A stretch of 64,000 nucleotides of DNA. It comes from Callorhinchus milii (lineage: Eukaryota). Of the stretch, positions 811-39,164 are shown one piece after another; the stretch's first letter is position 1; the number at the start of each line of letters is the position of its first letter. Made by a program: the position numbers and the translations under genes. Where the stretch lies: NCBI RefSeq assembly GCF_018977255.1, contig NW_024704742.1:434001-498000 (forward strand). Direction: 5' to 3'. The notes below the pieces were generated by a model. That model did no database searches. It worked only from the letters and a program-made list of their open reading frames with translations, and was not told the origin of the DNA.

Positions 811-3800
811 GTAAGTTGCAGTTCTTAAGAAAGTCCCGGGTGATGCAGATTGCTGCAGTTGAATGCCATTTTTGTTGGCAATGGTTTCCTTTTTTTCCTG
901 AAAAAGATTATGGCAATGCATTTTGCTTCCTAAAACAACAAAATCTTGGATTTATATAGCGCTCTACATGGGGGGTGGCCACTTGGACGCTTAATTAATG
1001 AAACTGGTTCAATATTTGATAATGTGGAAGGGAACGAAATTTATAAACGTTCGTTGAATCCTGAGAATAGTTTGGGATATTTAACTCTTTACTGATTGAC
1101 AATGCAGTGTTTTCACAATTGGTGAAGAAATTCTAGCTTTCTCCCAATGTCAGCCTGGCTCAGTTTGGTGAAATTAGCCCGACACAAGCGTAGAGTGGAT
1201 GAGCTGAGTATCATTACAAATCTCTTCATTACAGCACTATTTATTCACATTTAAACTGCTGTTCGTTTTGAATTAGATGGACAACGAGTGGGTTGAAAAG
1301 CCAAGGTCGATTGTCAGTGGGGAGCAACAGAGACCGAGAAATCTCAATGTCTGTTGGTTTGGGAAGGTCACAACTAGATTCCAAAGGTGGTGTGGTTGGT
1401 GGCACCATAGATGTGAACACATTGGAGATGGTTGGTAAGTTTGGTTCCTCAAATCACGTATGCCAACAAAATATATAGTCACTACACATTACAGCATATC
1501 CTGTGAAGCGCTCTGATACATCCTCCCCACGTGCAACGGTGAGATCGCTGTACACAATCTTCAACTAATTACTGGGAATAAACCTCTGTGTGTTCTGTTG
1601 CATTAATTTTCCAATTTACCCAATTTTATATTATACACGAAAAGTGTGGGATAAGCACCAAAATAAATCTTTACAAAAGGGTGTGGCATGTGTTGTGTTG
1701 GAGCGGCATTTCTGCAAGTCAGTGTGACGTATCTGCAGGATGTGACATTTAAAAATCCTTTATTATCCTGGCGCTTATTATTGTGCCTTTCCCATCGGGA
1801 GAATTCCACAATGCCCTTCATAGGATGTACTGTAAAGTGTAGTCATTCCATATTGCAGGAGAACACTTTCTTGAATACGTTTTTGGCATTTTCCATGTGA
1901 AAGTTTTTGCTATTAATCGTTCCTCACGTCCAATCATAACTCTTACTCTTTGCAGTACACATCTCGGAACACCCCAATCACCAACCCAGTCACAAAATCC
2001 AGATCACACTGGGCTCCACTGATGCTCGAGTGGATTATATGGGATCCAGTATTCTGATGGGAATTTTCAGCAATGCAGATCTTCAGCTGCAAGATGAGTG
2101 GAAAGTTCATCTTTATAATAGTGTCGACTCAAACTTGACTGAAAAAAGGTATTTAGAAATCCTATTCTCATAATCTTATTTTCATTACTTGCTACAAGAT
2201 TGAATAAATATTTCACTACTTAGATGTTTTTTTCAGTTATTTGTTGTCTGGTAAAAATATTGTATACAGTATAATTGCATTGCCATATTGTATAACGTTT
2301 ATGAATTTTACTGTAAAATATCTATTACAATATGGCCTTAAAGGAGCAGCTCTGCCATTGTCATTTTAAAGAATCGTTGTGTCTTCCTTCCTGCTACCTG
2401 ATCTTTAATTAACTGGCTACTCATCTCGTTGATATGGGATGTTCATTAATCCAGATTAATGTGAATGTGTGCCTGTATAAAAACATTCACTTTCGTTTCC
2501 AAATCTTAATTCAGACCTTTATTTTTACTGAAAGACGCAATTGCAGATGCAAATATGAAAACATTTTTGAAGAATGGTAATAAAACTTTGTTTTTCCTTG
2601 TTAAGTGATTTGTTTTCTCTTTCGCCTTCCAGCGAAATCTTTGTTCACGGAGATCTGCAATGGGACATCTTCCAGGTCATGATCTCTCGATCAACCACCC
2701 CAGATCTGATTAAAATTGGATTGAAACTGCAGGAATTTTTCACACAGCAATTTGATACCAGCAAACGAGTCCTGGCTACCTGGGGACCAGTGCTATACAT
2801 ACCCCCAAAAACACCAGTGATTAATGTGGAGCGGAGTTCCAATGAGCACTGTGAGAGTTTACACGTTACATTTTCCTTGAGAGAAATTTGCCTTGAGATG
2901 ATGGAAACTCTTGATTGATCCTTTACTTGTTTGTCTTTTTCCTTTTTCTCTCGTTCGAAGTACTGGGTGCTGCCCATCATCGCCACTGGCCAGAAGTGTT
3001 AAAGGTGATCGCTGGCTGCCACATCTCCTTGTTTCAGATACCGTTGCCTGAAGACGCAGTACAGCTGGGTGGATCTATGAGCCTGCATGGCAATCACATG
3101 ACTCTTGCCTGTTTTCACGGACCCAATTTCCGCTCAAAATCGTGGGCTTTGTTCCACCTTGAAGAGCCCAACATTGCTTTCTGGACTGAGGCTCAGAAAA
3201 TCTGGGAAGATGGTAAGTTTAATTTTAGAAACGTTTCCGAAAAGTGTTTTCAGTTGGAAAACTTATCAACCGGCAGCAAGTAAAGTGCATTCTTCACGAT
3301 TAACGTTCATGTCCTGTCGAGGCAAAGTCAAATTGGTGAAGACTGCAACATTTTCCATATCTGGGGAGAGAATTTCCAGCAGTCAGTAGAGTTCCTGACC
3401 TTACCAGTTTGCACTTAACAATGGGGGAAATCCCAACATTTCCCCTATTGTGGAGTCCTGCAGCTTTGTGGTTAGAGCACTTGCCACCCAAGCACTTCTG
3501 CTTACCAGCAGTAAGTAGGAAATGTTTGTCAGTCGATTGGCAGATTGCTTTTACGAGGGTAATTATTCCTTTAAAAAAGTTGCTCACTTCAATCCACAAC
3601 TGTTTGTGGGACGCTGCTGTGCACAATTGGCTGCTGCGTTTCGCCCACAAAATATACAATCAATTCACTTTGCAGTGTGTCTGTGAAGCGCTTTGGGACG
3701 TCCTCCCGACGTGAAAAGCGCTATATCAAATGCAAGGATTATTATTATTATATCCTGTGAAGCGCTTTGAGATGTCTCGAAGACATGATAAGGCGCTGTA

Positions 3801-6800
3801 TCAAATTCCCCTTCTTGTGAGTTTTCTTTTTAATTAATCTTACTGTCTATTGTTTCCTCATAATTTAATGCCCTTTAATCCCTCATGTTGTTGGGTGCTT
3901 CTCTGTTGTTTGTTGCATCCTTGATAGTCACTTGTTATAATGAATTCCAGACTTTCAACAAAACAAAAACAAATTACATTTGTATAGTGCCTTTCATGTC
4001 GGGAGGACGTCCAAGGCGCTAGAGTCTTCACTCAAACAAACCTTTTGAGTGAAGCCATTCCTGTGAAGCCATTTCGGATTGCTGATCACTCTTGTCTTCT
4101 AACCCATCTTAAATTTGGTACTTTTTATAGATCTGTAAATATCATTGTTTCATTTTGTTGATTTGATAGATAAGATAACACAAAGGAGTACATATTTCTG
4201 TGCTATTCATTTTTCCGCTGCTTAAAAATATTAAACAAATTGCAATAATACTTAGAAATAGAATAACTGTAATCTATTTTCAACTGTCTCCAGGGGCGAG
4301 TGACCACTCAACATACATTGTACAAACCCTGGACTTTCACTTGGGCCACAACACAATGGTTACAAAACCTGGAGGTGCCTTAGAAAGTCCAATGGCAACA
4401 ATCACCAAAATAACAAGACGTCGTCATGAAAATCCACCACATGGTGTTGCAAGTGTGCAGGAATGGTTCAACTATGTGACTGCCATGAGGAACGAAGGTA
4501 AAAAAAAATGCATGTTGTTGTTGTTATATTTTTAGCAAAACTAAAACATGAATTACCAAATATCAGAAGAGAAATGAAGCTGAGCATCAATAACTACTGT
4601 CACGACCTTTCCCCACAGAACTGAATCTTCTTCGAAACGTTGATTCTCACACTGCAGACAGTAAAACGTCTCTTAAGAGCTCCAACATGATGAGTGGGTT
4701 CCGAGGAACTGCCAGTTACAGCCATGAAACTGAGACAATCTTTGCCTTGCCAAGGATGCAGCTGGACTTTAAATCTATACACATGCAGGAACCTCAAGAA
4801 CCACTGCTGCAAGGTAGAGATCTGATTGAATTTACGAAACTTCAGCCCAGGAGGAGTCCGCTGTGTTTTGCTGTTGATGGTTTTTGCAGTGGCGCTATCT
4901 ACTGCCCTCACACTAAATCTTTATTGTTCGCAACCACAAGTCTGACATCTCGTGACCTCGGCTCCCACTATGCTCACCGTCTTACGCACTTTTATTTTTA
5001 AACGGGTTCGATTGTGAATCAAGTTTCAAAAAGTACAATCCAAAATGTGTTCCACCTCTTTTCCAGAGGGCGGTGTTTTGATATTTTTCCTCCGACCTTT
5101 CAGATCCCAACAGTAAGCCAAAGGTGGAGTGCAGTGTTGTGACCGAATTCACTGATCACATTTGTGTGACCATGGATGCTGAACTGATTATGTTCTTACA
5201 TGACCTTGTATCTGCTTATTTGAAAGAGAAAGAAAAAGGTTAGTCTTTTATTTTTTGTCAAATGTTCATTGCTAATTTTGTGACAGTTCTCACCCTTTCG
5301 GCCTCTGTTAATACTCACAGAAACTTGAGAAGTTCTTTGTTCTCTCAACATTTAATTTTTATTATTGTCTTGTCATAACTCTAGCTACAATCCACTACTG
5401 TTTGAGGGGACGCTGCTGTGCGCAATTGGCTGTTGGGTTTGGCCCACAAAACATACAGTCAATTCACTTTACAGTGTATCCTGTGAAATGCTTTATGAGA
5501 CGACCTCGAAGACCTGATAAAGCGCTGTATCAAAATCCAGGATTATTATTAACAGTGCAACAACAATCCACAATATAATTTTTCATAACACTAACCCCAA
5601 AATACATGTACCCTTGCTCTATCCAGAAGCAACCAACCACAAGGCTCCAAGGAAACTATTCTTATCCTCTCTTCAGCTCCTTCCCATTACCAGTGGACAA
5701 TCAATCTCTCATATCACCCATATGACCCCTACTAATATTTGGTGCCAAAGCAATCCTCTCGGGCGGCCAATGGCTGAGGGCCTCACTGCTTGCTCTCGCC
5801 TCTCACACTTCCTGCTGTCGCCCCTGCTACCTCTGTGCTAGCCATCCTCCCACCGTCAAAGCCCACTCTGCATCCACCGGGTTGTCGCCCCCTCCCCCTA
5901 CCCCAGTCTCCACACACGGGGAAAAGAGGGGCCGTGCGCACGTGAAGCAGAAAACAGACAATGTCTATCACAATTGTTGGTCTTTGATATGGAAATATCC
6001 AATGGGTTTTAATTTGGTGTATAGGTTCTCAGGTTAACTTATAACAGCGCTGGAAGGTTTTCATGTCCAGACACAATGCCTTTGTTGGGCTACAGATATA
6101 TTTACAGATAACACAATCCTTTTGAACATGGAAATAACATCATGGGACTGAATCATGATCTTTGGCTCCAAAACTAAAGCCAGATTTGGGCCAAGGGAAT
6201 TGTGTACTAAACTCTATTGCTTTTCAGTTTAGATATGATTAAAAATAATCAATTTAAAAGTATACTTTTAATTAATTGACTGTTTAACTGTGTTTATGAA
6301 TGTATAAAAAAACAAAAAAATTGCTTCTATTAAAAAATACCAATCCATTTGTAGCTATTTTCCCTCCTCGAGTTCTTGCCATTCGCCCCGGCCAGAAAAG
6401 TCCCATTACAGTTCACGATGACAGTTCCACAGACAAAGACAAGGAAGATGTGATCTACACAACTGTGGACTGGAGAGAGTTTGTTTGCAATACCTGGCAT
6501 CTGGAACCCACCTTAAGGTTAGCATCTAAATTCAGAATTGTCTCGTTCAATTGATCGTATGGAAACTTTGACAAACATTAACATCATTGGGAATTCTTCT
6601 CTCAAAAGATCCACATCCAAAGCTGCTTAAAGATTGTGAAGAGTGTTCAGATTTCAATAAAGGTATAGAGTAAACTGCTGATAACTCGTCAGGCCAAGGG
6701 AGAAGGACTCAGCAACTAGGTATCTGGAGTGGTGGGCTGGGTAAAGCTCCCCTAGGCCACAAGGGGGCACGGTGACTGCTGTGGGTGTTGATGTTCAGAT

Positions 6801-7939
6801 GAATGGCAGAGACCCATGTGGTGGCCTCCTAGTCTAACCTGTTATCTGAAGTAACTACTGAACTCACAAGAAATTCTGGAATGTGGCTAGTTACGTGTTA
6901 AGTGAAGTGACAAGCAAAGCGGAGGGAACCCTTACTCACACTTTGCTCGGGAAGTGGCTGGGATATTTTGACAGTGTGGAACTTAAATGGTAGTGAGAAG
7001 ATAAGCCACGACCTTGATATCAGGAGTTGACTGTATCTAGTTTTTACAAACTAGATCTTTAAGAGTTACCGTTTTTGTTAAGGCTACTTCAGTCCTCAGG
7101 AAATAAAATATCTCTTTTATATCTCCTGCCTGATAATTCTTCATTAATGTTGTGACAGATTCTTGAATGATTCTAAGGGTGTTTTATAGTCTGGAAATTT
7201 AATTTCCTCCCATCAGTTGTCTGGCACAATTGGTCGCATTCTTGCCTTTGAGTCAGAAGGTGGTAGATTCAAGCCCCATGACAGGTCTTTGGACTCAGTG
7301 TAGGCTGACCGTCCATCACTGAGCTGGGGGAGTGTTGCTGTCCTTCAGATGAGACATTAAACCAAAGTCTTGATGTTAAAGGTTCAATGGCACAATTTGA
7401 AAAGAGAAGGGAGTTTTCTCCTGGTGTCCTGGCTAACAATCCCCCACATAAAATGTGTCATTCATACCCGTTTGTAGGAAACTGATATGTGCAAATTGGC
7501 TGTTGCATTCACCTACAAAATACACAGTCACTACACTTTACTTCACATTTTGTGAAGAGCTTTGAAAGGTTGTGGTAGTGGCAACCTTTAATCCAAATGC
7601 ATAAATTATTAGGACTAACTGTAAAGGACACACTGGTTCTTGTGAACCAATTTCTAACAAAAAACTCTTTAACAGTAAAATGACCCGTTATTTGGTAATC
7701 TGTGTTTTTTTTCCAGGTTAATTTCTTGGACAGGAAGGAAGATTGACCCAGTAGGAGTGGACTACATTCTTCAAAAACTGGGCTTTCATCATGCCAGAAT
7801 CACTATTCCCAAGTGGGTCCAGCGTGGGGTCATGGATCCACTTGATAAGGTTCTCTCCGTTCTTATTAAAAAACTCGGCGTAGCACTGCAGGATGAAAAA
7901 GAGAGGAAAGGAAAGGACAAGGAAGAACATCCGAAATAG
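657..7939 (+). CDS. BLTP1: BLTP1/KIAA1109 (bridge-like lipid transfer protein 1), 3' portion: last 10 coding exons; gene starts upstream of window
   Basis: Exons 657-810, 1277-1434, 1956-2148, 2633-2850, 2961-3212, 4294-4497, 4619-4813, 5104-5238, 6355-6517 and 7717-7939 all have AG/GT boundaries and join in frame. The product ...[43 protein letters not shown]...HHRHWP...[20 protein letters not shown]...[35 protein letters not shown]...[10 protein letters not shown] matches the recalled vertebrate KIAA1109 C-terminus. Confidence 0.96.
1277..1434 (+). CDS. BLTP1: BLTP1 coding exon ([15 protein letters not shown]...LEMV)
   Basis: aattag / gtaagt boundaries; overlaps ORF 1293..1478. Confidence 0.93.
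1956..2148 (+). CDS. BLTP1: BLTP1 coding exon ([20 protein letters not shown]...DEWKVHLY...)
   Basis: tttgcag / gtattt boundaries; manual translation. Confidence 0.92.
2633..2850 (+). CDS. BLTP1: BLTP1 coding exon ([25 protein letters not shown]...)
   Basis: ttccag / gtgaga boundaries; within ORF 2574..2918. Confidence 0.92.
2961..3212 (+). CDS. BLTP1: BLTP1 coding exon ([10 protein letters not shown]...AQKIWED)
   Basis: cgaag / gtaagt boundaries; within ORF 2915..3283. Confidence 0.92.
3451..3806 (+). mobile_element. tRNA-derived SINE (long subfamily, internally deleted, duplicated tail)
   Basis: ggagtcctgcagc...gtggttagagcac head; shared body and tail; second partial tail 3752-3806. Confidence 0.75.
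4294..4497 (+). CDS. BLTP1: BLTP1 coding exon ([18 protein letters not shown]...AMRNE)
   Basis: ctccag / gtaaaa boundaries; within ORF 4200..4535. Confidence 0.92.
4619..4813 (+). CDS. BLTP1: BLTP1 coding exon (LNLLRNVD...[19 protein letters not shown]...LLQ)
   Basis: ccacag / gtagag boundaries. Confidence 0.92.
5104..5238 (+). CDS. BLTP1: BLTP1 coding exon ([44 protein letters not shown])
   Basis: tttcag / gttagt boundaries; manual translation. Confidence 0.92.
6355..6517 (+). CDS. BLTP1: BLTP1 coding exon ([16 protein letters not shown]...WHLEPTLR)
   Basis: ttgtag / gttagc boundaries; within ORF 6300..6554. Confidence 0.92.
7215..7570 (+). mobile_element. Deu-domain SINE (SacSINE1/AmnSINE1-like), degraded
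   Basis: tRNA-like head plus ccttcagatgagacattaaacc...atggcac...gtgtcctggc core. Confidence 0.7.
7717..7939 (+). CDS. BLTP1: BLTP1 terminal coding exon ([22 protein letters not shown]...EEHPK*)
   Basis: ttccag acceptor; TAG at 7937-7939. Confidence 0.94.
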
Positions 7940-10712: not shown

Positions 10713-13700
10713 GTACGTTCGGAGCGGTATGTGTCCGGCCGTTCCTTCTCACCGAGCGACCGGTTCCCGCGGCGCTCCCTTCGCTGCTTCACTGTCCCGC
10801 GTTTCAAGCTGCGCGGGCGGCCCCGATTCCGACTGAGCCAGGCAACAGCGTCCGAACGCAGCAGCTGTCCACTCTCCGAAGCTTCGTCCCTCGCATCGAT
10901 TGGGAGAAACGATCCACGACGCAGAAGCGCTCCTTCGTTTCCCGGCAGAGAAGTGGGAATAACACCGCTCCTGTAAATACATGTCCCGTTGATCTCCCCG
11001 TGAGCCACATTGGGACGGAACGGCTCGGCGTGCGAGTTGGGTGTGGAGTGGATCCCCGACCATGTTTCTCCCCTATCAGTCGCACGTGGGTGGATTTGCT
11101 GATGTGGCATCAGTTCCGGGCGATTAATTTGAGAGGATCGTGTATTTGAAGAAACCCGATCTGGATATCGTTTGACAACGGATTTTATTTCTGTACCGAG
11201 CGACTCTCTCGCTGGTTGAAACTCCGCTTGGTGTTCCCTCGTGTTGAGGGTGATGCTGTATTCTGTACCCGGGTGGGGGTCGGGGTCGGGGGGGGAGATG
11301 GCTTTATGTGGCACGGGATTGGCGTAACCTCAGAATTGACGATCAAACCCTGGCGTTTGATCCGACGCCTGATCACCTCGTCGAGACGTCTGAAAGCGCT
11401 TCACAGGAAACACTGTAAAGTGAATTGACTGGATTTTGTGGGTGAAACGTGTCAGCCGGTCGCGCACGGCAGTGTCCCCACAGTCTGCTGCCTTGCATGG
11501 TATAGTTTTCTGTTGCCTGCCTGGGTCCTGCTCCTGCAGGTTATTAGCAATCTTGGTCAATAAGTTTTCTCTGCAAGGTTGTGGGTTCAAGCCCCACGTT
11601 GGGACTTGGAATCCACGTGGTCCATACTGACACTCCACCGCAGGGCTCGGGATGTGCTGTATCGTTAAACCAAGGTCCTGCCTGTCTGCCTGTTCAGGTG
11701 GACTTTAATGATCCCCTCGGCACGATGAAAAGAGAAGGGAGTTTCTCTCTGCCGGTGTCCTGGCCAACAACCCCTCCCAAACAGAACTGATCACACACTC
11801 CATGGCTGTTCCAGCGCCTTGGGACGTCGTCCCGACATGAAAGGCGCTACGCAAATGTAATCTTGTTGTCGTCGTCGTATTTGTTGTTGTGTTGTTTGTG
11901 GAACACTGTTGTGTGCGAATTGGCTATCGCGTTCACCCACAAAATGCACGCAGTCACACCACTTCACAGTGGCCTGTGAAGCGCTTTGAGTCATCTCAAC
12001 AATGTGTTAAGGTTTGAATTCAAGGACTATCACACAGTAATTTGGTAGAATAATTTTCCTTTTAATAATGAATGACTCATCTCTCTTTTTAATAGGTCAC
12101 TTGGGTTTTGAAAATGCCGTTGAGTCTCCCTAATTGCTTTTAGCCTAGAATACTGATCTACTTATTATTATTATTAATACTGATCCAAGTTATTGTCACG
12201 GAAAGCTCTAGTCAAGTCCCCGTGTAAGCACGTCACAAAATGATGTACATTTTTTCCTTCATCCAGTTGTTTCTATTGGAGTTGGTGACTCTAGTCAGGA
12301 ACCTCCAAGAGAAACAACTAGACTGAAAAAAACCCTAAAGATTATAGTAATAAAGCTACTCTTAGTATCTGCGTGACTTTATTACTAAAATATTAGAGTC
12401 TGAGACAAAAATATTAAAACTGCATGCTCTGATTTTCCTCAGAAATTGGGGAACCTATTCTCTGTGCCTGGGCATGTGCTTTTCTTCCCCTGTAACCGGC
12501 CATATAATAATCCTTGCATTTGATATAGCACCTTGTTATCAGGTCTTCGAGACGTCTCAAAGCGCTTCACAGAATGTACTGTAAAGAGAATTGACTGTAT
12601 ATTGTATGAACATATGCTCTTCATTTTTCCACTACTGCCCTGTGCCTGTGTCACCCTTCCCCCATGCCCAACACCTTTCTTCTCCACACCCCCACCCCCC
12701 GATTGCCAGGGTAAGTCCTCCTCCCTCTTAATTTTACTTGGATTTTCTTTCTTTATTGTTATGCCATTTAGAATTGTGTATATTTTTGCAGGGCAATATC
12801 CAAAGTCGCAGTTTGTTGAAAATGCGAAACCGCTCCCGAACACTTCACTGCCTCCCAAGAAGGTGCCTCGAGAGTTTATTGATAAATGCCGTCGTGGTGA
12901 GATCAACCCTGTTTCAGCTTTGCATCAGTTCGCACAAATGCTGCGAATGCAACTCATTTTGAAAGAAACTATAGCGACAGGCGAGTGGAATTTATTTTCT
13001 CTGTCGTATATTTACCTCCTTAGAAACCCCTCTTTGTAATCCCGCCTTCGCCAAGTTCTGACACGTGCGGTAACCCACCACCGTGCTTAAGAGTATCCAA
13101 ACCAGACAGAGTTCCACATGTGAAATTTTCCCCGTGTCTGGAATGACACTCTCCCAAGAAAGATGCATTCTGCTTACCTAAGAGTATTAGATGCAGTTTG
13201 GCGAGAGCCGTGGTTTGGGAGCTCCAGAGTAGGTGTTTGGGTACTGGGGTTTAACCAGCTAAGGCTGCATAGCTTACCAGAGTGAGCGCTGTTTGGCAAG
13301 TTTCCTGCTTGCTTGTTCAGCTAAGACCACCCTACCCTTTAGGGCCTTGGCTTGCAATGTTAATGGGACCTGAGTGGAAAGAACCTCTGTCCCTAGTGAC
13401 TGATCTGCCCCTCTCAAGTCCTGCTGAAGAACCAGGCTCGTGGCTCTGTCATCGTTAGTGCCTTGGACCACTCTGGGCTCGCCTCGCAGAACAGATACAA
13501 ATAGATTATTTCTCTATTTTTCCAGGGAATGTTTTCGGACAGTATTTTGCCTTTTGTGCAGTGGTTGATGGCATTGAGTACAAAACTGGAATGGGTCAAA
13601 ATAAAAAAGAAGCAAAGGCAAATGCTGCACAGTTAGCTCTCGATGAATTGCTGGACACCGAACTGATCAAGACTCCAAGTAAGTCTTTTATTTTTTTAAA

Positions 13701-16700
13701 AAATAAAGTACTGGTTTAGTGATGAAGTACACTCCTTGCTCTCTGGCAGAATTTCTACTATTCTGTCATTAAAAACATAAACTACTCCTGTATAGGTTAA
13801 GCAGCAAGGAATCTAACTTCAAAATTAGGCTATGGTGAGCAAACAAGCATATTTTTGGGGGGATGGCAGTGCTTTTGGAATTTTTGGGGATCTCAATCCT
13901 ATCTCTGAAGAACTGAGGACATAATCTCTCTCTTGTCTACAAATCCCTTCACGCCCTGTCACCTCCCAATCTTTCAGACCCTTTGCCTCCGCTGCCTGGC
14001 TCTGGGCTCCTGCTCGTCCCGCTACACCATCGATGGACGTGCTTTCAGTTACTACACCCCAAATCTTTGGAACTCTCTCCCTCAATTCATCCGCCATGCC
14101 CCCTCCTTCCGCTCTTTTAGATCACGACTGATCCCCACCCCACCCCCACCCCCCCCCGGCTCAGCATCAGGTTGCGCCACCTTTAAGCGTTCAGACACTG
14201 CCGCACTTGGAGGGCGCTGTATAAGTAAGTTGTTGTTGCTGTTGGGATGCTTTTAAGATGATCATTTCATTGTTTCACATCAATATGTTGAACATTTAAT
14301 TTCAGTTATCGGTCCAACTCCGATCCCTGCTGAACGAAAGGTCGTTCCTGCACCAAGTCTCCCTTCAAGGAATCAACCTTCAAAGTTAGGCTATGGTGAG
14401 CAAGAAGATTTGGATTTGTTTGGCATCTCAACCCCATCTCTATGAAGAACTAAAGACATAACCCAGAAAATGGGGGGTGTAAACTCAGTAAATAATAATA
14501 ATCCTTGCATTTGATTGTACAGCCTTATCACATAAAGGCGTCTCAAAGCGCTTCACAAGTTTGTGAAGTGTAGTGAGTGCGTATTTGCGCACAGCACTGC
14601 CCCACAAAACAGCAATGAAGTGAATGACAAGTTTTATCGGGGACCTGTTGACCACAACACCAAAAGAAACTCCCTTCTCTTTCGAGTAGTGCAGATGCTT
14701 CCGATTCACGTCTCATCCTAAAATGAACCGTGTTAAATTTGTCTTGACAATTGCTACCACACAGTGTGACGACGATGATAATACTAATAATGCATCACAT
14801 TTAATGAGGTGCTTTTCATATCAGGAGAATGTCTGAAAGCACTTAAGAAAATACACTGAAGTGTAGTAACTATTTTGTGGGCGAACACGGCAGCCAATTT
14901 GCACACACCAACATACCGCAAACAGTCGTGGAGTGAATGGCTAGTTTTTATTACTGTTACTATAACCTGACTCTGAGACGAGAATGCTACCAACTGAGCT
15001 CGGCTGACGCACAGCTCATCATTTGGTCAGGTTTTTCCTTCTGGACTTTAGTTACTATAACCTTGTGTTATGTTTGCCCATTTAGCAACACTGTGGATGA
15101 ATTCGTTGATAAATAGCCATTTCTCCTTTTTAAATGTTTTGTTTTTTTTTCTTGTAGAAGGAAGGAATTCTTATTACATGGCGATTTCTGTTGCCTGTAA
15201 GGAGGTGTTCAGCAAGCTGACTGCTAACCACCAGGAACACCAAAATTGTGGGAATTCCCTGGCTGCTTTTGTAGTTGAAAAATGTGAGTAGAAAATTGCG
15301 AAAACTACATTTTTAAGATCAATGTGATCATTCAGTTATATAATGTTCTGCTCATTACTGGTAAATAAGGAGAAATCTTAGCCCTGCAATTTTCCTATAT
15401 ATTTACAAAAAAAGTTTGTATTTTCTCAAGCAAAGGAATTAGCGAAATCACTGCAATAGATTTGTGTTCTGCATCACGTATGGTGCAGTCGTCGATAGCT
15501 TCTGGCCGATAGTGGAGGCCAATTGCTCTTTACTCATTTTGCCTCAAGTGCTTTAGAAAATCAGGCTTTAAATTGCCAGGAAAATTCAAGCGACCATTTA
15601 AAATGTTTGTTTTAGTTGGACAGCCCTGTGAAGTTGTTGCAGTTGGAACTGGGGAGATAAGTTACAATGGCCCTTCTTATCCCGAAGGCCGAATAGTGCA
15701 CGATTCCCACGCTGTGGTGACTGCGAGGCGCTCACTGTTGAGGTAAAGTGTCTTCTACATTAGCAAACCAGATGAGTTTTAATGAAAAGTGTAAAAGCTG
15801 CAGTTTTTCATTTTAACGACCAGCTACAAACATTTCCAAATGTACTTTTGACTCGGTTGTTATCCATATCCCCGTACCCTGGGCCGATATAAAAGTGCGG
15901 CTGCAGTTTTGTCAAGGAAGCAAACACCAGAATCCGCGACAAACCTGCAAAAAAAAAATGAAGCTTCCTCAGCGCCCGGGCCTCTCGTGCTGCTGCCGGC
16001 TGTTTACTCCACGCACCCACTGGGATGAGTGGCTCCTCCAGACGCTCATGCCTGGTGCGCAATTTTCGGCAAACATTACCGCAATTTCCCATTGACCCCG
16101 GCCATAGCTAAGGTAGATTTCTATAACTGGAAAATCTTCCGTTATGTATTGTACCAAAGGTCCTGTTCTCAATTTGTCGCCTGCTTGCTTTGCCCACCAA
16201 CAGTGGGGGCTTGTGCTCTTGTTGGCATTGAAATTTACCAACTGTTTTGGAAGATGCCTGCTGTGCAGCGTTTCAAGCTGCGGTTCATTACTTGGGGAAA
16301 ATAAGTTATAATCTTATAATAATCATGATCTCTGTCCGGCAAGGTGTCTGGCCGAGGTAGGTGGAGTGTCAGCTTTACTATCGCTGGCGGGCGGGCACAG
16401 CACATGTGCTCTGAAGACCCACGTAACCATCTCTGAGCTGCGTTACTCTTCTACAAGACTTTGGAACCATAGAAACAACGTTAACGGGTTGTTTCATATG
16501 GTTTCTGATCTGGCATTACTTAATATGATTCCTAATGTGCAGACCAGTCTGCCAGCAATTGATGCTTGTATTTTTTAATGAGGAGTAATGGTGTCTATGC
16601 AGTTAATCCACTTTACAATATGTTGATATCAAATGTAAGAATTATTATTATATATCTGATGTGCACTTTTATACTTTCCAGGTATCTTTACAGACACCTT

Positions 16701-19035
16701 CTTATGTTTTATAACAAAAATCCTGAAGTGGTGAAGCAGTCTATTTTTTGCACCAACTCTGAAGGAAAAGTTCTTACCCTCAAGGATCGGACTAACTTTC
16801 ACCTTTATCTGAATCAACTACCAAAAGGTGCTGCTCAGATCAAACGGCTGTAAGTGGGAGTAATTCTAGGCTTTGTGTATGATACATGATGTGAAAGGAT
16901 TATTTAACTCTGGCATTAGTCCCATAACATTGTTTGGATGAGACAGCAAACCAAGGTCTCTCTGCTTTTTGAGATGCACATTAAAAACAATTACAAAATA
17001 GTCTTAACATGCTGCTATCTGAAAAGAGAAGCGAGTTTCTCGCAGTGTTACTGGTCAATAATCCCCCAGATTTATTAAAAAAAGTCATTCCTGTTAGTAG
17101 GACGTTGTGTCACCAAAAATAGTTGCTACACTTTAGAGAAAACTTTATGAAATGCTTTGAGATGTTTCGACCCAAACCCTTGATTCCTCATTAGAAATTA
17201 AATATTTTACAGTTCAGTGTTTTTGATTTAACAAAACTGTTTCCCACTGTGATAAAATAAATCAAACGTAGAATCAAGTTGCTTTAACACCGAATGTCTT
17301 TCTTTACACAGACATCTGGCCCCTCACTCAATATCTGCGTTTCACACAAATAAAGAAATGGAGCTTCATATTGTTTTGGATGGCAACGTGTACTCCGTTA
17401 GCCACTGTAGTTCTGAAGTAACTGCAACCAGAGTATGTAGTATGTCTGCCAGTGACAAACTCACCCGTTGGGAAGTACTTGGAGTCCAAGGTGCTCTTCT
17501 CAGTCATTTCATTGAACCCATCTACATCAGCAGCATCCTGATTGGTATGTGATCTAATATCTCAAGCTGTGGAAAAAAAATCATTATGTTCCCAAATATT
17601 TTATCAAACAGCCACTTGTATTTACAATAGCAGCTTTCTTGTGGAATAATGGCGACATAGAGGGTAGATCTTAAAACTAAATACTCTGCCAGGACTGTAC
17701 CTTTCAGTCTGGACTGAATGGAAATAGGAGAGGCTGTCTAATGGCGGTTTGTGATGATTGATGATTTGTGATGATTGATGATTTGTGATGATTGATGATT
17801 TGTGATGATTGATGATTTGTGATGATTGATGATTTGTGATGCTCGTTCAACACATGATTGCACTCTGGCCAATATACAACTTACAGATCTGCTCTTATCA
17901 TGTGTTTTACTTAAATATTTGTATTGAAAAATGGAATTTAAAAATACCCATTCAAAAACTTGCAAAATCACTTTGTAACTTTCATTTGATCTTCTAGGTG
18001 ATGTAAATTGCATTGACACACGAGGAATGGATATAGCGATTAAACAGCGTGTAGATGACTCACTAACTTCAAAGCTCCCTAACTTGTACATTGTCAACAA
18101 ACCTCATATTTGCCTGACAGAAGTTGCGTATCCCTCACAGGCAAATACGGTCAATAAAATGCTCAGTCTGAATTGGTCTCAGTCAGATGGTTTATTAGAA
18201 ATTGTGAATGGTGTGACTGGAAAGATTGCTGAAAGGTAAGGTGCTCTCAACATGTAATATTGTCTCACTTACCGTTGTCTTTGTATTCCATCTATTTATC
18301 CTACAATATCACTCCATTCAGAATGTGAGAATCTTCACAAGCTATCAACTGTTGACCTATTCACATCAAAATTCTGCGTAACTTCTGGACTTTGTATTCT
18401 GCTGATCATTAAATACAGTAGTTGTGGTGGATAAGTGTCCATAATGAAGTATTTTAACCTCTAGCTACACCGACCTTTATTATAATAGCAAATAATGATT
18501 CTTACGTTTGTATTAGAAGGAAATTATATAAATCCTGGGACCTGATAATTAAGACCCTTTATCACTGATACTGAAGCTATTTAATCCCTTTGCTCAGCCT
18601 TTCGGTCTTTCAGTATTGTAATTCTAAACAGATGTGTGGATGAAGTCATTATTATCCATTTCAAAAAAGCGATTTGTTTTTTGCTTTACAGTTCACCATT
18701 TAAAAGTGGCGCCTCCATGACTAGTCGTTTATGCAAAGCTGCCATGCTGAGTCGCTTCTATCTTGTTGCTAAAGAAGCGAATCGAGAAGATTTGTCCACA
18801 GTTGCAACGTATCATGTAGCAAAGGTAAAGCTCACTTCCTGCTTAACTCTACACTGAAAATGCTGCCCAATTAAAATGTCTAATCAGTTTTTAAAATGCA
18901 ATTTGTTTTCATTCCTTCCAGATGATGGCAAAATCGTATCAAGAAGGAAAAACATTGCTGAAATCATCCTTGGAACAGCATGGATTTGGTATTTGGCTAG
19001 TAAAGAATCCAAATGATGAACAGTTCCATATGTGA
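10538..19035 (+). CDS. ADAD1: ADAD1/TENR (adenosine deaminase domain-containing 1; dsRBD plus inactive ADAR-type deaminase), 11 coding exons, 581 aa
   Basis: Exons 10538-10712, 12792-12980, 13526-13678, 14306-14395, 15158-15283, 15616-15742, 16682-16849, 17312-17544, 17998-18235, 18692-18824 and 18922-19035 sum to 1746 nt in frame. Motifs [70 protein letters not shown] and SRLCKAAM match ADAD1. It lies directly downstream of KIAA1109 as in other vertebrates. Confidence 0.95.
11575..12005 (+). mobile_element. Deu-domain SINE with inserted L2-type tail
   Basis: ggttgtgggttcaagcccc head; cgttaaaccaaggtcctgcctg...cctgttcaggtggac...gtgtcctggccaaca core. Confidence 0.65.
12792..12980 (+). CDS. ADAD1: ADAD1 coding exon 2 (dsRBD start; GC donor)
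   Basis: ttgcag acceptor; AG|gcgagt donor required to keep frame. Confidence 0.9.
13050..13490 (+). repeat. Unclassified interspersed repeat (related copies at 25885-26520 +, 48630-48870 +, 57830-57905 -)
   Basis: Shared motifs ccg(t/c)gcttaagagtatccaaac, gagagcc...ggg.actcca.ag, ttaaccagct, gactg.tctgcc...aagtcctgc. Confidence 0.75.
13526..13678 (+). CDS. ADAD1: ADAD1 coding exon 3 ([15 protein letters not shown]...[10 protein letters not shown])
   Basis: ttccag / gtaagt; manual translation. Confidence 0.92.
13930..14245 (+). mobile_element. L2 LINE 3' fragment
   Basis: [19 protein letters not shown] motif; tail gagggcgctgtataagtaagttgttg. Confidence 0.75.
14306..14395 (+). CDS. ADAD1: ADAD1 coding exon 4 (IGPTPIPAE...KLGY)
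   Basis: tttcag / gtgagc; 90 nt, phase 1-1; corresponds to the mammalian GPPPFPAEP linker. Confidence 0.8.
15158..15283 (+). CDS. ADAD1: ADAD1 coding exon 5 (GRNSYY...SLAAFVVEK)
   Basis: ttgtag / gtgagt. Confidence 0.9.
15616..15742 (+). CDS. ADAD1: ADAD1 coding exon 6 (EVVAVGTG...[14 protein letters not shown])
   Basis: ttttag / gtaaag; manual translation. Confidence 0.92.
16682..16849 (+). CDS. ADAD1: ADAD1 coding exon 7 ([10 protein letters not shown]...[10 protein letters not shown])
   Basis: ttccag / gtaagt. Confidence 0.92.
17312..17544 (+). CDS. ADAD1: ADAD1 coding exon 8 (...[35 protein letters not shown])
   Basis: acacag / gtatgt. Confidence 0.92.
17748..17841. repeat. 17-bp minisatellite (TTTGTGATGATTGATGA) x ~5.5 in ADAD1 intron
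   Basis: Perfect tandem copies visible. Confidence 0.92.
17998..18235 (+). CDS. ADAD1: ADAD1 coding exon 9 (DVNCIDTRG...SLNWSQ...GKIAE)
   Basis: ttctag / gtaagg. Confidence 0.92.
18692..18824 (+). CDS. ADAD1: ADAD1 coding exon 10 ([18 protein letters not shown]...TYHVAK)
   Basis: ttacag / gtaaag. Confidence 0.92.
18922..19035 (+). CDS. ADAD1: ADAD1 terminal coding exon ([10 protein letters not shown]...[19 protein letters not shown])
   Basis: ttccag acceptor; TGA at 19033-19035. Confidence 0.92.
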   Translation: MMAKSYQEGKTLLKSSLEQHGFGIWLVKNPNDEQFHM

Positions 19036-35324: not shown

Positions 35325-35751
35325 TTTATTTGTGTTTATACCTTGAAGCAGAATACAGTTAATATTATATAAGACAGCAGCAACTGTAATAACTTAAACA
35401 AAGGTGTTGATATAAATATAGGAAATTAAATACTGTATATAGTACTTTCTTCTCGTACATTAACTGATCCTCTTGAGAAATTAATAAATATAGTCATCAC
35501 ATACCCATATACAATTAGTTTCTAAGATACAGTGTCAATTTGTTAGTTGTATAACAAAAGTGTATTCAGACTTGTTAAACTAGTCTAGTGAAGCATAGCA
35601 GCCCGTAGGGCTTACATTTAAGACCCGTTGCGATTCATTATCTTTATGAACGCAAAACAATAAATTAAGTATTTAAATATTTCAACGTGAAACTAATTTG
35701 AGATTCGACTACAGCCGTGCATAAATTATATTTTACTTTGTTCCATTAACA
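35325..35751 (-). promoter_or_regulatory. IL2 3'UTR with AU-rich elements and polyA signal
   Basis: At least six ATTTA pentamers on - strand (plus-strand TAAAT at 35413, 35427, 35485, 35661, 35674, 35722); AATAAA at 35330-35325. Confidence 0.75.
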
Positions 35752-35892
35752 CTAAACATATGGTTTGCTTTTCATTCCCGTGCTGCTCACATGTTTCTGT
35801 GCTGTTTTGTAGTTTCTCTGTAAGAACACCTTCAGTGCCAGCAAGAATTCAGGGATCTTCTTCTGTTTGAATTCACACCTTTGGCTTCCTTC
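35752..35892 (-). CDS. IL2: IL2 exon 4 (CD loop + helix D + C-terminal tail), 46 codons + TAG
   Basis: attttacag acceptor; TAG at 35754-35752. Confidence 0.88.
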   Translation of the reverse strand, partial: EGSQRCEFKQKKIPEFLLALKVFLQRNYKTAQKHVSSTGMKSKPYV

Positions 35893-38052
35893 CTGTAAAA
35901 TACAACACCTGTTATACTTTGTTTATAGGGGGGTTGATACCCTTATAGTACATAAGGTGACCCTGTGCTTTGCCACCTGATGTTAATGTTATTTGTGGGT
36001 GGGGGGGTCGGGGAGATTTTTAAGTGGACAAATTTCTATGTTCAAGAAGGTTAAATGTATTAATAAGCTGGTCAATGCATATTCATAAAGACTTGGATCT
36101 TAGTTGAAATCAGATACTGTCTTTGAAGAGCAGTACAGTACTATATTTGTGGGTGCAATCTATGTTGCAGTATGAAACCCAAAGCTTTTGCACTTACCAC
36201 TGTCTGGAATGTTTTCATGTTTGAGATTATGATGCTTGCAGGCTTTTTGCAGCTTGGAAGTTTGCATTTATGCTTTAAAGTTGTAAGTCCTTCCTCAAAG
36301 CAAATCAGCGAACAGTTGGGCTAGAGAAGAAAAAAAATAACAAAGTTAGATGACATATTCTGCAGAATAATGACAGCTGCAAACATTTTCAAGGAATTCA
36401 TTTTATTAAAATTTGGTATATACTTCAAATAATACATTTTACTTTGTTTAATCATTGGGAATATAGAAATTATTTTGCAATTTTGAGGTCTACTCTTATC
36501 GCTTCCTAAACCAGTTTCAGAAAACGTTTAAACCCAAATATCTAAATTGAGAGATTTAAATTTAAACGCACCTCTGTTTACCGAGAAGTGAGTAGGAACC
36601 CAGTTGTCAGTCCATTGGCAGATCGCTATCTGGGAGTACTAATCCCTCCCCCACAAAAATAATAATAATTTCATCCCTCAATCCACAATTGTTTGTGGGA
36701 CGTGGGATCTGCTGTGCGCAATTGGCTGTGCTTTCGCCCACAAAATACAATCCACCTTTACAGTATATTCTGTTAAGCGCCTTGAGACGTCTCAACGGCA
36801 CGATAAGGCATTATATCAAATGCACGGATCATTTTTATATCGCAATGTAACATTACGGAACAAGTTCAAGCACAGGATGTTTAACTATTAATGTTCTAAA
36901 ATTATACTATACACTTGGACTAAAATGCAAAATGTGATTTCCTAAAGAGTCGTCTCTTAGGAGATAATCACAGCCTAGGCTGACACTCCAGTATAGTACT
37001 GGAAAATATTGTTGGAGATATAGGTTACCGTGACAGGAATTTCCAACCCCTTTTCTTTCTAAATTATCCTGTTTGGGCCAGATAAATAATTGCACCTGAT
37101 TGTTTTGCAATTTTCTAATACATTATGGAATTGCTTTCTTTTGCAATATTCAGTCATTCATATAGTCGTACCCTATACAATGCATCTTCACACTCCTAAG
37201 GAATATTTCACCAAGTTTTGCTTCTCTTTATAAGTAATCATAATCCTTGCATTTGACTTAGCGCCTTATCACATCATCGAGACATCTCAAAGCGTTTCCC
37301 ACGATCGACTGTAAAAATGTTATGACTGGGTGCGTTTTGTAGATGAGTGCATCAGCCAAGTTGCACACAAACAGCTTACAAACTGCCATGGACTTTCGTT
37401 TGAGAGAAACTCCCTTCTCTTTCGAATAATGCCATAGAATCTTTAGCGTTCGCCTGAACAGGCAAACAGGACCTCAGTTTAACGTCCCCTCCGAATGACG
37501 GCAACTCTGCCAGTGCAGCAAACCCCAGGAGTGTCAGCACAGATTATATGAGTTCCAAGTCCCGAACCTACAACCTTCTGACTCAGAGGCAAGTGCTACC
37601 AACTGTGCAAGGTTTGACGCACTTTATATAATACTGTGAGATAAGACTATGAGTTCAGTTGTTTTTAAATCCTGCTGACACTAATGTTTTTTTTAACTGG
37701 AAGAGTAATTCTAAAATAGTGCTAAAAACGTTCAAATAGATGCTTACCTCCAGGATCACAGGAGTGCGTATTAAGTCTTGCGAATTCATGAGATATTGAT
37801 CGTTCTGGAATAAAACAAAGTGATTCATTGTTAGTAGGTGCAAAAAATAAATCTGTAGCAGTAAATATATCTTAACGTACGTATTTACATATGTCAAGAT
37901 AAGCTTAAAACCCCTCTTACCTTCAGAAGTGTTTGTAGCTCCTTGGTCTTCAAGATCATTTCACGAAGCAAATATTTAAATTTGGTACCATCGTCACCTA
38001 TCGCTGTGGTGAACGTCAGCACAGTGAAGAATAAGCACAGTAACTTAGGCAT
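35752..38052 (-). CDS. IL2: Interleukin-2 (IL-2/15/21 family short-chain four-helix cytokine), 4 exons, 150 aa precursor
   Basis: Exons 38052-37921, 37804-37748, 36320-36198 and 35892-35752 have canonical GT-AG introns, all phase 0. Protein: MPKLLCLFFTVLTFTTAIGDDGTKFKYLLREMILKTKELQTLLK/NDQYLMNSQDLIRTPVILE/PNCSLICFEEGLTTLKHKCKLPSCKKPASIIISNMKTFQTV/EGSQRCEFKQKKIPEFLLALKVFLQRNYKTAQKHVSSTGMKSKPYV*. It has a signal peptide and the motifs LICFEEGL, IISNM and CE...EFL...FLQ. It lies tail-to-tail with ADAD1 and has an IL2-type promoter and AU-rich 3'UTR. Confidence 0.85.
36198..36320 (-). CDS. IL2: IL2 exon 3 (helices B and C), 41 codons
   Basis: ttttcttctctag acceptor; GTG|gtaagt donor. Confidence 0.88.
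36570..36830 (+). mobile_element. 5'-truncated SINE in IL2 intron 2
   Basis: Long-subfamily body and tail. Confidence 0.75.
37240..37620 (-). mobile_element. Deu-domain SINE in IL2 intron 2
   Basis: cctgaacaggc...ggacctcagtttaacgtc...tccgaa.gacggca...caaccttctgactcagaggc. Confidence 0.78.
37748..37804 (-). CDS. IL2: IL2 exon 2 (AB loop), 19 codons
   Basis: ttttattccag acceptor; GAG|gtaagc donor. Confidence 0.88.
37921..38052 (-). CDS. IL2: IL2 exon 1 (signal peptide + helix A), 44 codons
   Basis: aatcATG start; AAG|gtaaga donor. Confidence 0.88.
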
Positions 38053-38109
38053 GATTGAGACAGTGACTGCTCTGTGGACTATTCTGATAGATTTCAGAGT
38101 GTAACGGTG

Positions 38110-38360
38110 AAGGGATTTTATACCCTTTGTGGAGGTAGGGGGGAAATCGTAGGAGTTTTAATAGTCATTAATTTAGCAACCTGTGTCTCTCGTGAAGGAT
38201 GAATATTTTCCTCTTTGATGACTATTTTGGAAATTTTTCAAATTTGGCAATTCTAAACTTCATGATGGTAAAATCCCTTTGCTCAAACCTGCGTGTAAAC
38301 CACCAAAACCAATGGAGGTTGTGCTTATGATGCATGCCTACAATTTTCCTTCCTTTGAGA
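38110..38360 (-). promoter_or_regulatory. IL2 proximal promoter: TATA, NFAT, AP-1-like, CD28RE-like, NF-kB, distal NFAT
   Basis: On - strand: TATAAAA 38122-38116; AGAGGAAAA 38214-38206; ATAGTCA 38225-38219; GAAAAATTTCC 38239-38229; GGGATTTTACC 38277-38267; GGAAGGAAAATTG ~38353-38341. Confidence 0.8.
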
Positions 38361-38510
38361 AAAAAAACCCTTTCAAAATGCTTAAGAGATGCAATCACTG
38401 AGAGAAAAAGAGATAAGCTTTTAAAAAAAAAGAGTTTGTACTTGTTTGTTCTCTAAATAACTAGAGAAGTATTTCCTGTTATCAAATGATCTGTTTGCTA
38501 TATCATCTTT

Positions 38511-38821
38511 GGAGTCCTGTAGCTCAGTGGTTAGAGCACTCGCTTTGCAAACGAGAGACCTGAGTTCAATTCCAGGCAGAGGGCGAAACCTTGGGCAAGT
38601 TTCCTTACTCCACACAGAGCCTAATAATAATCCCTATCATTAAAACAAAACAATAATAAATTGGTCATTTTCAATCCACGACTGTTTGTGGGACATTGCT
38701 GTGCGCAATTGGCTGCCGCGTTCACCCACAAATATACAGTCAATTCACTTTACAGTGTGTTCTGTGAAGCGTTTTGGGACGTCCTCCCGACGTGAAAAGC
38801 GCTATATCAAATGCAAGGATT

Positions 38822-38830: not shown

Positions 38831-39164
<334 letters not shown>

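What the first reader, a model, noticed from the sequence alone, without database searches (positions are those of the whole stretch)
38110..38360. IL2 promoter architecture apparently conserved with mammals, including the CD28RE/AP-1/NFAT composite
Seen on - strand, 5' to 3': AAAGGAAGGAAAATTG, then AAAGGGATTTTACC, then GAAAAATTTCCAAAATAGTCATCAAAGAGGAAAA, then AGACACAGGT, then GTATAAAA. My recollection of the human IL2 promoter gives, in the same order: GGAGGAAAAACTG (distal NFAT/ARRE-2), GAGGGATTTCACC (NF-kB), AAGAAATTCCAAAGAGTCATCAGAAGAGGAAAA (CD28RE-AP-1-NFAT), AGACAGGTA, GTATAAAT. The middle block is nearly alignable base for base, and spacings to the TATA look only ~20 nt shorter than in human. 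Inference: TCR plus CD28 co-stimulation control of IL2 dates to the jawed-vertebrate ancestor. The promoter looks better conserved than the protein and independently supports the IL2 identity.
Basis: partly seen in the sequence, partly recalled or inferred. Interest (0 to 1): 0.85.

Follow-up and report, generated by a model that had tools for sequence, protein, structure and literature searches.

The report
Shark IL2 promoter matches mammals'
This stretch is the on-switch in front of the elephant shark's interleukin-2 gene, and its row of binding sites matches the mammalian one closely, which suggests this T-cell control circuit is about as old as jawed vertebrates.

Summary

**The gene.** The ATG opens a four-exon, all-phase-0 gene for a 150-aa secreted protein. 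A spliced contig confirms the exon 3-4 junction. The gene lies tail-to-tail behind BLTP1 and ADAD1, the mammalian IL2 position as I recall it. The ADAD1 exon is 100% identical to Callorhinchus milii ADAD1.

**Match to mammals.**
- CD28RE/AP-1: 22 of 27 columns
- NF-kB site: 14 of 16
- distal NFAT core: 12 of 15

**Chance.** The NF-kB-plus-CD28RE/AP-1 pattern occurs once in the 991.5-Mb genome, here. The published 26-mer's best match in 248 kb is this site, though only narrowly.

**Limits.**
- No full alignment to a human promoter could be run.
- The start site is unmapped.
- The distal AP-1 half-site is not kept.
- Function is untested.
- No protein search names the gene.

**Verdict.** This is a real, very probably homologous IL2 proximal promoter. 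The circuit's age is a reasonable inference, not yet shown. My searches found no paper describing it.

The parts
38341..38356 (-). Distal NFAT-like element (AAAGGAAGGAAAATTG). The GGAAAA core and its 5' flank are kept. The adjoining AP-1 half-site is not.
   Evidence: By hand, 12 of 15 columns match the start of the human NFAT element printed in PMC10563396, and 17 of 21 match the mouse NFAT/AP-1 probe in PMC3167847.
38267..38281 (-). NF-kB-like site (CAAAGGGATTTTACC)
   Evidence: By hand, 14 of 16 columns match the core of the NF-kB probe printed in PMC2194172.
38229..38239 (-). CD28RE-like Rel half-site (GAAAAATTTCC)
   Evidence: Part of the 22-of-27 hand alignment to the CD28RR probe of PMC3167847.
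38216..38224 (-). AP-1-like site (TAGTCATCA), matching the NF-IL-2B AP-1 part of the CD28 response region
   Evidence: AGTCATCA is identical to the 3' end of the published probe. The probe's best local match in 248 kb ends at 38216.
38206..38213 (-). Proximal NFAT-like core (GAGGAAAA), one base after the AP-1-like site
   Evidence: the pattern AGTCATCAN{1,3}AGAGGAAAA has 4 matches genome-wide and 0 in the control. CAAAGAGGAAAAT (38218-38206) is identical to 13 letters inside the mouse NFAT/AP-1 probe.
38179..38188 (-). E-box-like AGACACAGGT, a possible ZEB-type repressor site
   Evidence: Present. The human counterpart is recalled only and was found in no held paper.
38116..38123 (-). TATA box (GTATAAAA)
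   Evidence: It lies 64 nt before the ATG at 38052. The start site is not mapped.
37921..38052 (-). Coding part of exon 1: 44 codons from the ATG (a hydrophobic leader, then a helix-A-like stretch), followed by a GT donor
   Evidence: No RNA contig covers it.
37748..37804 (-). Exon 2 (19 codons, phase 0)
   Evidence: AG/GT borders and an open frame. The first 23 nt of the spliced X1 contig account for the depth of 0.96 in the 37722-37822 bin (table 2).
36198..36320 (-). Exon 3 (41 codons, phase 0)
   Evidence: X1 contig record 1 covers 36320-36197 (table 8).
35752..35892 (-). Exon 4 coding part (46 codons plus the stop), with the helix-D-like motif C-E-F...EFL...FLQ
   Evidence: In the X1 contig, 36197 is followed directly by 35891-35790 (table 8). 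The exon is unique in the genome.
35325..35751 (-). Probable 3' UTR with six ATTTA pentamers, ending at AATAAA (35330-35325)
   Evidence: Six ATTTA in 432 nt against 2.5 +/- 1.5 in shuffles; 78 of 2000 shuffles reach 6.
13459..19032 (+). ADAD1 (dsRNA-binding and adenosine-deaminase exons), the upstream neighbour, tail-to-tail with the cytokine gene
   Evidence: Pfam dsrm and A_deamin hits reach profile position 328 of 329. One exon is 100% identical to ADAD1 of Callorhinchus milii.
2571..7936 (+). Last exons of BLTP1 (KIAA1109)
   Evidence: Pfam BLTP1_C, profile positions 1467-1938 of 1938.

Best explanation
Window 38110-38360 (minus strand) is the proximal promoter and enhancer of the elephant shark orthologue of IL2. 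It descends from the same ancestral sequence as the mammalian IL2 -300..+1 region.

Reading 5' to 3', it holds:
- an NFAT-type site
- an NF-kB site
- a composite of a Rel half-site (CD28RE-like), an AP-1-like site and a second NFAT core
- an E-box
- a TATA box

The likely mechanism is inferred, not shown. In activated T cells, calcineurin-driven NFAT, AP-1 and Rel/NF-kB dimers bind these neighbouring sites cooperatively. Transcription then needs several signals at once, as in mammals. The E-box would give repression at rest.

What is shown: the sites, their order, their uniqueness in the genome, the gene structure, one splice junction and the synteny.

What is inferred: factor binding, inducibility, CD28 dependence and the start site.
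For: - Sites and order.
- Hand alignments to published mammalian oligos: CD28RR 22 of 27 columns (probe), NF-kB 14 of 16, human NFAT element 12 of 15. A 13-letter run is identical to the mouse NFAT probe.
- Flanks outside the factor cores also match: TTT before the CD28RE, CAA before the NF-kB site and CCAAA in the spacer. That fits common descent better than re-invention.
Two 1-nt indels on either side of the AP-1 site cancel out.
- The joint NF-kB + CD28RE/AP-1 pattern has 1 match in 991.5 Mb, here, with 0 in the control and 0 of 100 window shuffles.
- From I calculate that a given 300-nt stretch would hold the composite on a given strand by chance at about 1.5e-6, and the NF-kB string at about 3.7e-5.
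- The published 26-mer's best local match in 124 kb x 2 strands is this site.
- Gene identity rests on three things: four phase-0 exons of 44, 19, 41 and 46 codons, the exon 3-4 junction in a spliced contig while a DNA run keeps the intron, and the order BLTP1(+), ADAD1(+), this gene(-).
- An IL15-like last exon lies elsewhere, at 30.36 Mb.
- Elephant shark Rel and RelA exist and bind kB probes (PMC12043515, passages seen). At least four Rel-homology loci are in the genome.
Against:
- The 26-mer's top score is only narrowly top: 28, against 26 at three other positions and 25 at one.
- Genome-wide, the composite pattern is no commoner than its reversed control (10 against 7). Only its position is special.
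- In the distal element the AP-1 half-site reads TGTAGGCA where the published human element has TGTTTCA.
- The one octamer-like ATTGCAT (38395-38389) lies upstream of the distal NFAT site. As I recall the human order, it should lie downstream.
- The motifs are A/T-rich.
- The transcription start is unmapped.
- No protein search names the gene.
- No IL21-like gene was found within 60 kb upstream, though the search was crude.
- Two of the five human strings rest on recollection only.
Confidence: 0.8

Rival explanations
1. Convergence. This is the promoter of a T-cell cytokine gene that assembled NFAT, AP-1 and Rel sites on its own, because any activation-induced cytokine needs them. On this view the likeness to mammalian IL2 is functional, not inherited.
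For: The factor cores are short and A/T-rich. The distal AP-1 half-site and the octamer position differ from the mammalian layout. The single-probe score is only narrowly top.
Against: Identity extends into spacers and flanks that the factors do not specify (hand alignments to the probes). The order is the same, and the TTCC-to-GGAAAA distance is the same. The joint pattern is unique in the genome. The gene sits at the IL2 position.
Confidence: 0.09
2. The gene is not the IL2 orthologue. It would be IL21 or a lineage-specific IL-2-family paralogue, so the promoter likeness says nothing about IL2 itself.
For: No profile or sequence search names the protein. Published phylogenetic support for cartilaginous-fish IL-2 is weak (ultrafast bootstrap given as 0.61 in PMC6238376, passages seen). 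I did not locate IL21.
Against: It is the first cytokine gene after ADAD1, tail-to-tail, as IL2 is in mammals (the mammalian order is recalled). It has four exons, whereas IL21 has five (recalled). Exon 4 has no second copy in the genome. The CD28RE/AP-1 composite is, as far as I know, specific to IL2.
Confidence: 0.08
3. Chance resemblance in A/T-rich DNA.
For: The region is 36% G+C. The composite pattern alone occurs at its background rate genome-wide.
Against: The joint pattern has 1 match in 991.5 Mb, with 0 in the control and 0 of 100 shuffles. It lies 94-160 nt upstream of the TATA box of the very gene where it was expected. A further NFAT core abuts it.
Confidence: 0.02

Closest known systems
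Mammalian IL2 proximal promoter/enhancer (about -300 to +1), with the CD28 response region (CD28RE plus NF-IL-2B AP-1 site; Shapiro et al. 1997, seen only as a reference)
   Same: Same gene position, same order of elements and near-identical cores. The CD28RR probe matches 22 of 27 columns and the NF-kB probe 14 of 16. A TATA box follows at a similar distance.
   Different: About 15-29 nt shorter overall, assuming a start site 30 nt after the TATA. The distal AP-1 half-site is not kept. The AP-1 site in the composite is shifted by one base. The octamer-like site is in another place. Nothing has been tested functionally.
Chicken IL2 promoter (Kaiser and Mariani 1999, Immunogenetics 49:26; title seen in the reference list of PMC3894449, paper not read)
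   Same: The logic is the same: promoter sequence, exon structure and synteny were used to call a fast-evolving cytokine IL2 rather than IL15.
   Different: That case spans the bird-mammal split. This one spans the split between cartilaginous and bony vertebrates, about 450 million years by PMC6238376 (abstract start in the listing).
Putative elephant shark IL-2 of Dijkstra 2014 (Nature 511:E7; not held; known to me through PMC6238376, passages seen)
   Same: Probably this very gene. That work reported IL-2 and IL-21 candidates in this species.
   Different: I could not see that paper, so I cannot say whether its gene model equals mine or whether it discusses the promoter.
Ancient conserved non-coding elements shared by elephant shark and human (recalled; no call)
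   Same: Non-coding sequence alignable across the gnathostome root.
   Different: As I recall, those elements cluster around developmental regulator genes and are longer. This would be a short, interrupted one at a fast-evolving immune gene.

Membership tests
IL2-type proximal promoter/enhancer | Lies directly 5' of the first coding exon of the IL2 gene and ends in a TATA box | tested here: met
   The TATA box at 38123-38116 is 64 nt before the ATG at 38052, and no other ATG lies between them.
IL2-type proximal promoter/enhancer | Transcription starts about 30 nt after that TATA box | tested here: inconclusive
   No contig of the laid runs covers exon 1. The start site is assumed.
IL2-type proximal promoter/enhancer | CD28RE (non-consensus Rel site) joined to an AP-1 site | tested here: met
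   22 of 27 columns match the published CD28RR probe (hand alignment). The probe's best local match in 248 kb is here. The pattern has 10 sites genome-wide.
IL2-type proximal promoter/enhancer | NFAT core directly 3' of that AP-1 site | tested here: met
   AGTCATCA-A-AGAGGAAAA at 38223-38206. The pattern has 4 sites genome-wide and 0 in the control. The human reference for this part is recalled.
IL2-type proximal promoter/enhancer | NF-kB site of the GGGATTTCACC type upstream of the CD28RE | tested here: met
   14 of 16 columns match the printed probe. It lies 34 nt before the TTCC of the CD28RE-like site. The joint pattern is unique in the genome.
IL2-type proximal promoter/enhancer | Distal composite NFAT:AP-1 element (ARRE-2) | tested here: inconclusive
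   The NFAT half and its flank match 12 of 15 columns of the printed human element. The AP-1 half reads TGTAGGCA instead of TGTTTCA.
IL2-type proximal promoter/enhancer | Octamer (Oct-1) sites within the array | tested here: inconclusive
   Only one octamer-like ATTGCAT was found, at 38395-38389, upstream of the distal NFAT site. The mammalian positions are recalled, not checked.
IL2-type proximal promoter/enhancer | Induced by TCR plus CD28 signals and blocked by cyclosporin A | not testable with these tools
   Needs reporter assays or stimulated shark lymphocytes.
IL2 gene (orthologue) | Conserved neighbourhood BLTP1 - ADAD1 - IL2, with IL2 on the opposite strand | tested here: met
   BLTP1_C exons at 2571-7936 (+), ADAD1 at 13459-19032 (+), this gene at 38052-35752 (-). 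The mammalian order is recalled.
IL2 gene (orthologue) | Four coding exons, all phase 0, with a short second exon | tested here: met
   44, 19, 41 and 46 codons. The exon 3-4 junction is in a spliced contig, and the exon 2-3 junction is implied by bin depths.
IL2 gene (orthologue) | Match to the IL2 sequence profile (Pfam PF00715) | tested here: inconclusive
   Single exons gave no hit at E <= 10. A six-frame genome search at E <= 10 did not flag this locus.
IL2 gene (orthologue) | Four-helix short-chain cytokine fold | not tested
IL2 gene (orthologue) | IL21 is the next gene on the same strand | tested here: inconclusive
   tblastn with this gene's exons and two motif searches over 60 kb further on found no candidate. 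The method is crude.

The most novel reading that the evidence does not exclude
[quoted passage not shown] If so, the NFAT/AP-1/Rel coincidence detector that makes IL2 depend on combined antigen-receptor and co-stimulatory signals was already fixed in the first jawed vertebrates. Promoter homology could then settle cytokine orthologies that protein trees cannot.
Probability: 0.5. Interest if true: 0.75.

Novelty: new member of a known kind. Interest (0 to 1): 0.55.

Why it matters
- **Orthology.** IL-2 of cartilaginous fishes is contested. It was first reported missing, then proposed, and protein trees support it only weakly (PMC6238376). A promoter that matches the mammalian IL2 promoter, at the IL2 position, is independent evidence for orthology.
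- **Age of the circuit.** The match suggests that the way T cells combine calcium/NFAT, AP-1 and Rel signals on one short DNA stretch is as old as adaptive immunity in jawed vertebrates.
- **Testability.** The idea can be tested directly. Elephant shark Rel and RelA domains have already been cloned and used in gel shifts (PMC12043515).
- **An unusual case.** Deeply conserved non-coding sequence at an immune effector gene is, as far as I recall, uncommon.

Tried and rejected
- **Pfam on single exons:** 0 families for 3 of 3 pieces at E <= 10.
- **Homology search with exon 4, longer proteins:** 2 candidates, none scored.
- **ESM Atlas with exon 4:** no usable hit.
- **HMMER with exon 4 against 1.84 billion representatives:** 0 hits at E <= 0.001.
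- **Six-frame genome search with PF00715 and PF02372:** 2 weak hits each, none at this locus.
- **Sequencing runs:** no RNA holder listed. No contig of the four laid runs covers exon 1, the 5' UTR or the promoter as RNA, so the start site stays open.
- **IL21 search:** tblastn and two motif searches over the window plus 60 kb found nothing. The one E = 0.003 hit holds a stop codon and its tail resembles the repeat-derived ORFs common in this window.
- **A second AGGGATTTCACC 47.6 kb away:** no TATA box or exon nearby.
- **Metagenome scan for the composite,** hoping for host DNA of other vertebrates: 0. I did not use the second scan.
- **Earlier notes of this scan:** nothing relevant.
- **Papers:**
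  - Shapiro 1997, Rooney 1995 and Dijkstra 2014 are not held.
  - Three old J Exp Med papers (PMC2119143, PMC2192740, PMC2119150) were listed by searches, but their held main text showed no motif.
- **Not done:** a full alignment with human, mouse or chicken promoters (no such sequence is held by any tool here), and a fold of the spliced protein.
- **Not used:** Complex prediction.

Full report
**Observation.** On the minus strand the five strings stand exactly as described:

| Element | String | Window position |
|---|---|---|
| Distal NFAT-like | AAAGGAAGGAAAATTG | 38356-38341 |
| NF-kB-like | AAAGGGATTTTACC | 38280-38267 |
| Middle block | GAAAAATTTCCAAAATAGTCATCAAAGAGGAAAA | 38239-38206 |
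| E-box-like | AGACACAGGT | 38188-38179 |
| TATA box | GTATAAAA | 38123-38116 |

An ATG follows at 38052 with no other ATG in between. The 301-nt stretch is single-copy in the genome. About 390 nt upstream of the TATA box a dispersed tRNA-like repeat begins at about 38511 on the plus strand. Its 21-nt head occurs 10 times in the window. The old, unique promoter can therefore be at most about 400 nt long.

**The gene.**
- The ATG opens a 44-codon exon with a hydrophobic leader and a GT donor at 37920.
- A scan for AG/GT borders and open frames, plus reading of the sequence, gives three more exons. They are 37804-37748 (19 codons), 36320-36198 (41 codons) and 35892-35752 (46 codons and the stop). 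All are phase 0, for 150 aa in total.
- A 257-nt contig of run X1 lies on 36320-36197 and continues directly on 35891-35790. A DNA run (X2) reads through the intron (table 8).
- The first 23 letters of that contig account exactly for the depth of 0.96 in the bin that holds the 3' end of exon 2 (table 2).
- So the gene is transcribed and spliced as modelled, at least from exon 2 onwards.
- The last exon carries a C-E-F...EFL...FLQ motif. As I recall, helix D of IL-2-family cytokines has this pattern, with the glutamine at the same distance from EFL as the gamma-chain-contacting glutamine of human IL-2.

**Locus and species.**
- On the plus strand lie the last exons of BLTP1, at 2571-7936 (Pfam BLTP1_C to position 1938 of 1938).
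- After them lies a gene with a dsRNA-binding motif and an adenosine-deaminase domain, at 13459-19032.
- One of its exons is 100% identical to ADAD1 of Callorhinchus milii, on a contig of exactly the length of this one. It is 82-91% identical to ADAD1 of sharks and rays, and 59-70% identical to tetrapod and other ADAD1 (best 120 of 269 hits listed).
- The window is therefore elephant shark.
- The order BLTP1, ADAD1, then a cytokine gene on the other strand is the order KIAA1109/BLTP1-ADAD1-IL2 that I recall from human 4q27.
- An IL15-like last exon lies 30 Mb away on the same chromosome. Exon 4 of this gene has no second copy.

**Comparison with mammals.** No tool here holds a mammalian promoter, so I used oligos printed in papers and aligned them by hand.

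| Published oligo | Source | Shark stretch | Matching columns |
|---|---|---|---|
| CD28RR probe TTTAAAGAAATTCCAAAGAGTCATCA | PMC3167847, | 38242-38216 | 22 of 27 (four mismatches, one 1-nt insertion) |
| NF-kB probe core CAAGAGGGATTTCACC | PMC2194172, | 38281-38267 | 14 of 16 |
| Human NFAT element, first part | PMC10563396, | 38353 onward | 12 of 15 |
| Mouse NFAT/AP-1 probe | PMC3167847, | distal element | 17 of 21 |

- The shark run CAAAGAGGAAAAT (38218-38206) is identical to 13 letters inside the mouse NFAT/AP-1 probe.
The AP-1 site is shifted by one base through two cancelling indels. That part of the human string is recalled, not checked.
- PMC3167847 places the CD28RR at -147 to -163 and the NFAT/AP-1 site at -274 to -287. 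With a start site assumed 30 nt after the TATA box, the shark blocks lie about 15-29 nt closer.

**Chance.** I counted patterns in the whole 991.5-Mb genome.

| Pattern | Matches | Reversed control |
|---|---|---|
| TTCCAAAN{1,2}AGTCATCA | 10 | 7 |
| AGGGATTTYACC | 247 | 169 |
| AGTCATCAN{1,3}AGAGGAAAA | 4 | 0 |
| NF-kB string, 20-50 nt, then the composite | 1 (this site) | 0 |

- The joint pattern appears in 0 of 100 shuffles of the window.
- From these counts, a given 300-nt stretch would hold the composite on a given strand by chance at about 1.5e-6, and the NF-kB string at about 3.7e-5.
- These patterns were chosen after seeing both sequences. As a less biased test I scanned 124 kb on both strands with the published 26-mer by local alignment.
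- The best score, 28, ends at 38216. The margin is small: 26 at three other positions and 25 at one.
- The chance that the top hit falls in this 300 nt on this strand is about 1 in 800.

**What does not fit, or is open.**
- The AP-1 half of the distal element is not kept.
- The only octamer-like site is in a different place.
- The start site is unmapped.
- No protein search names the gene.
- IL21 was not found within 60 kb.
- Two of the five human strings could not be checked in print.

**Mechanism (inferred).** By analogy with the mammalian promoter, NFAT, AP-1 and Rel/NF-kB dimers would bind the neighbouring sites together, so the gene fires only when several T-cell signals coincide. Elephant shark Rel and RelA exist and bind kB probes (PMC12043515). 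The genome holds at least four Rel-homology loci.

**Known or new.**
- Elephant shark IL-2 and IL-21 candidates were proposed by Dijkstra in 2014, and trees support them only weakly (PMC6238376).
- Promoter likeness was used in 1999 to call chicken IL2. I saw only the title.
- Searches combining the IL-2 promoter with elephant shark, cartilaginous fish, shark, fish or Fugu listed no paper on this promoter. I judged this from listings and from passages of eight papers.
- Dijkstra 2014 and its supplement could not be seen and may bear on this.

**Verdict.** This is a real and very probably homologous IL2 proximal promoter, which counts as a new member of a known kind. Its interest lies in its depth in time and in its use as evidence for orthology.

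Noticed in passing
window 38511-38640 (+) and nine other places (3460, 9363, 20949, 39596, 40214, 43062, 46618, 61079, 62755): A dispersed tRNA-like repeat. Its 21-nt head occurs 10 times in the window with up to 3 mismatches, though ARAGORN calls no tRNA at 38300-39300. One copy bounds the IL2 promoter about 390 nt upstream of the TATA box.
   Followed up: partly
window 35325-35751 (-): The probable 3' UTR holds six ATTTA pentamers in 432 nt (shuffles give 2.5 +/- 1.5; 78 of 2000 reach 6) and ends at an AATAAA at 35330-35325. This is the AU-rich instability pattern usual in cytokine mRNAs.
   Followed up: partly
window 38389-38395 (-): An octamer-like ATTGCAT lies about 45 nt upstream of the distal NFAT-like site. 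As I recall the mammalian order, it should lie downstream.
   Followed up: no
window 38138-38148 (-): GATTTCCCCCC lies between the E-box and the TATA box. It is a reverse NFAT-type TTTCC core joined to a C-run. It might correspond to the promoter-proximal NFAT and zinc-finger sites of mammals, but that is a guess.
   Followed up: no
L004 1875-1886 (-), that is G000:C1:519875-519886: A second AGGGATTTCACC, in the exact mammalian spelling, lies on the same strand 47.6 kb further upstream, although the genome has only 247 such sites. No TATA box or exon is evident nearby.
   Followed up: partly
L009 1435-1608 (+), that is about G000:C1:30355712-30355885: An open frame ends in ...CKPCEEFQEKNVTSFLSGFISLLQQIIKFKSVN. 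It is a weak hit to the Pfam IL15 profile (E = 2.1) and is probably the last exon of IL15 or IL15L.
   Followed up: partly
window 8700-11400: A G+C-rich island (0.60 at 10001-12000) with long proline/threonine-rich open frames on both strands, lying between BLTP1 and ADAD1. It looks like simple repeats or a CpG island.
   Followed up: no
window 29595-29981 (-) and 33862-34089 (+): Reverse-transcriptase fragments of retroelements lie between ADAD1 and the 3' end of the cytokine gene.
   Followed up: no
window 37454-38500: In DNA run X2, one contig differs from the window at five places in intron 1 (37838-37907) and at 38105. No difference is listed in 38106-38500, the promoter (table 3). The numbers are too small to show constraint.
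   Followed up: no
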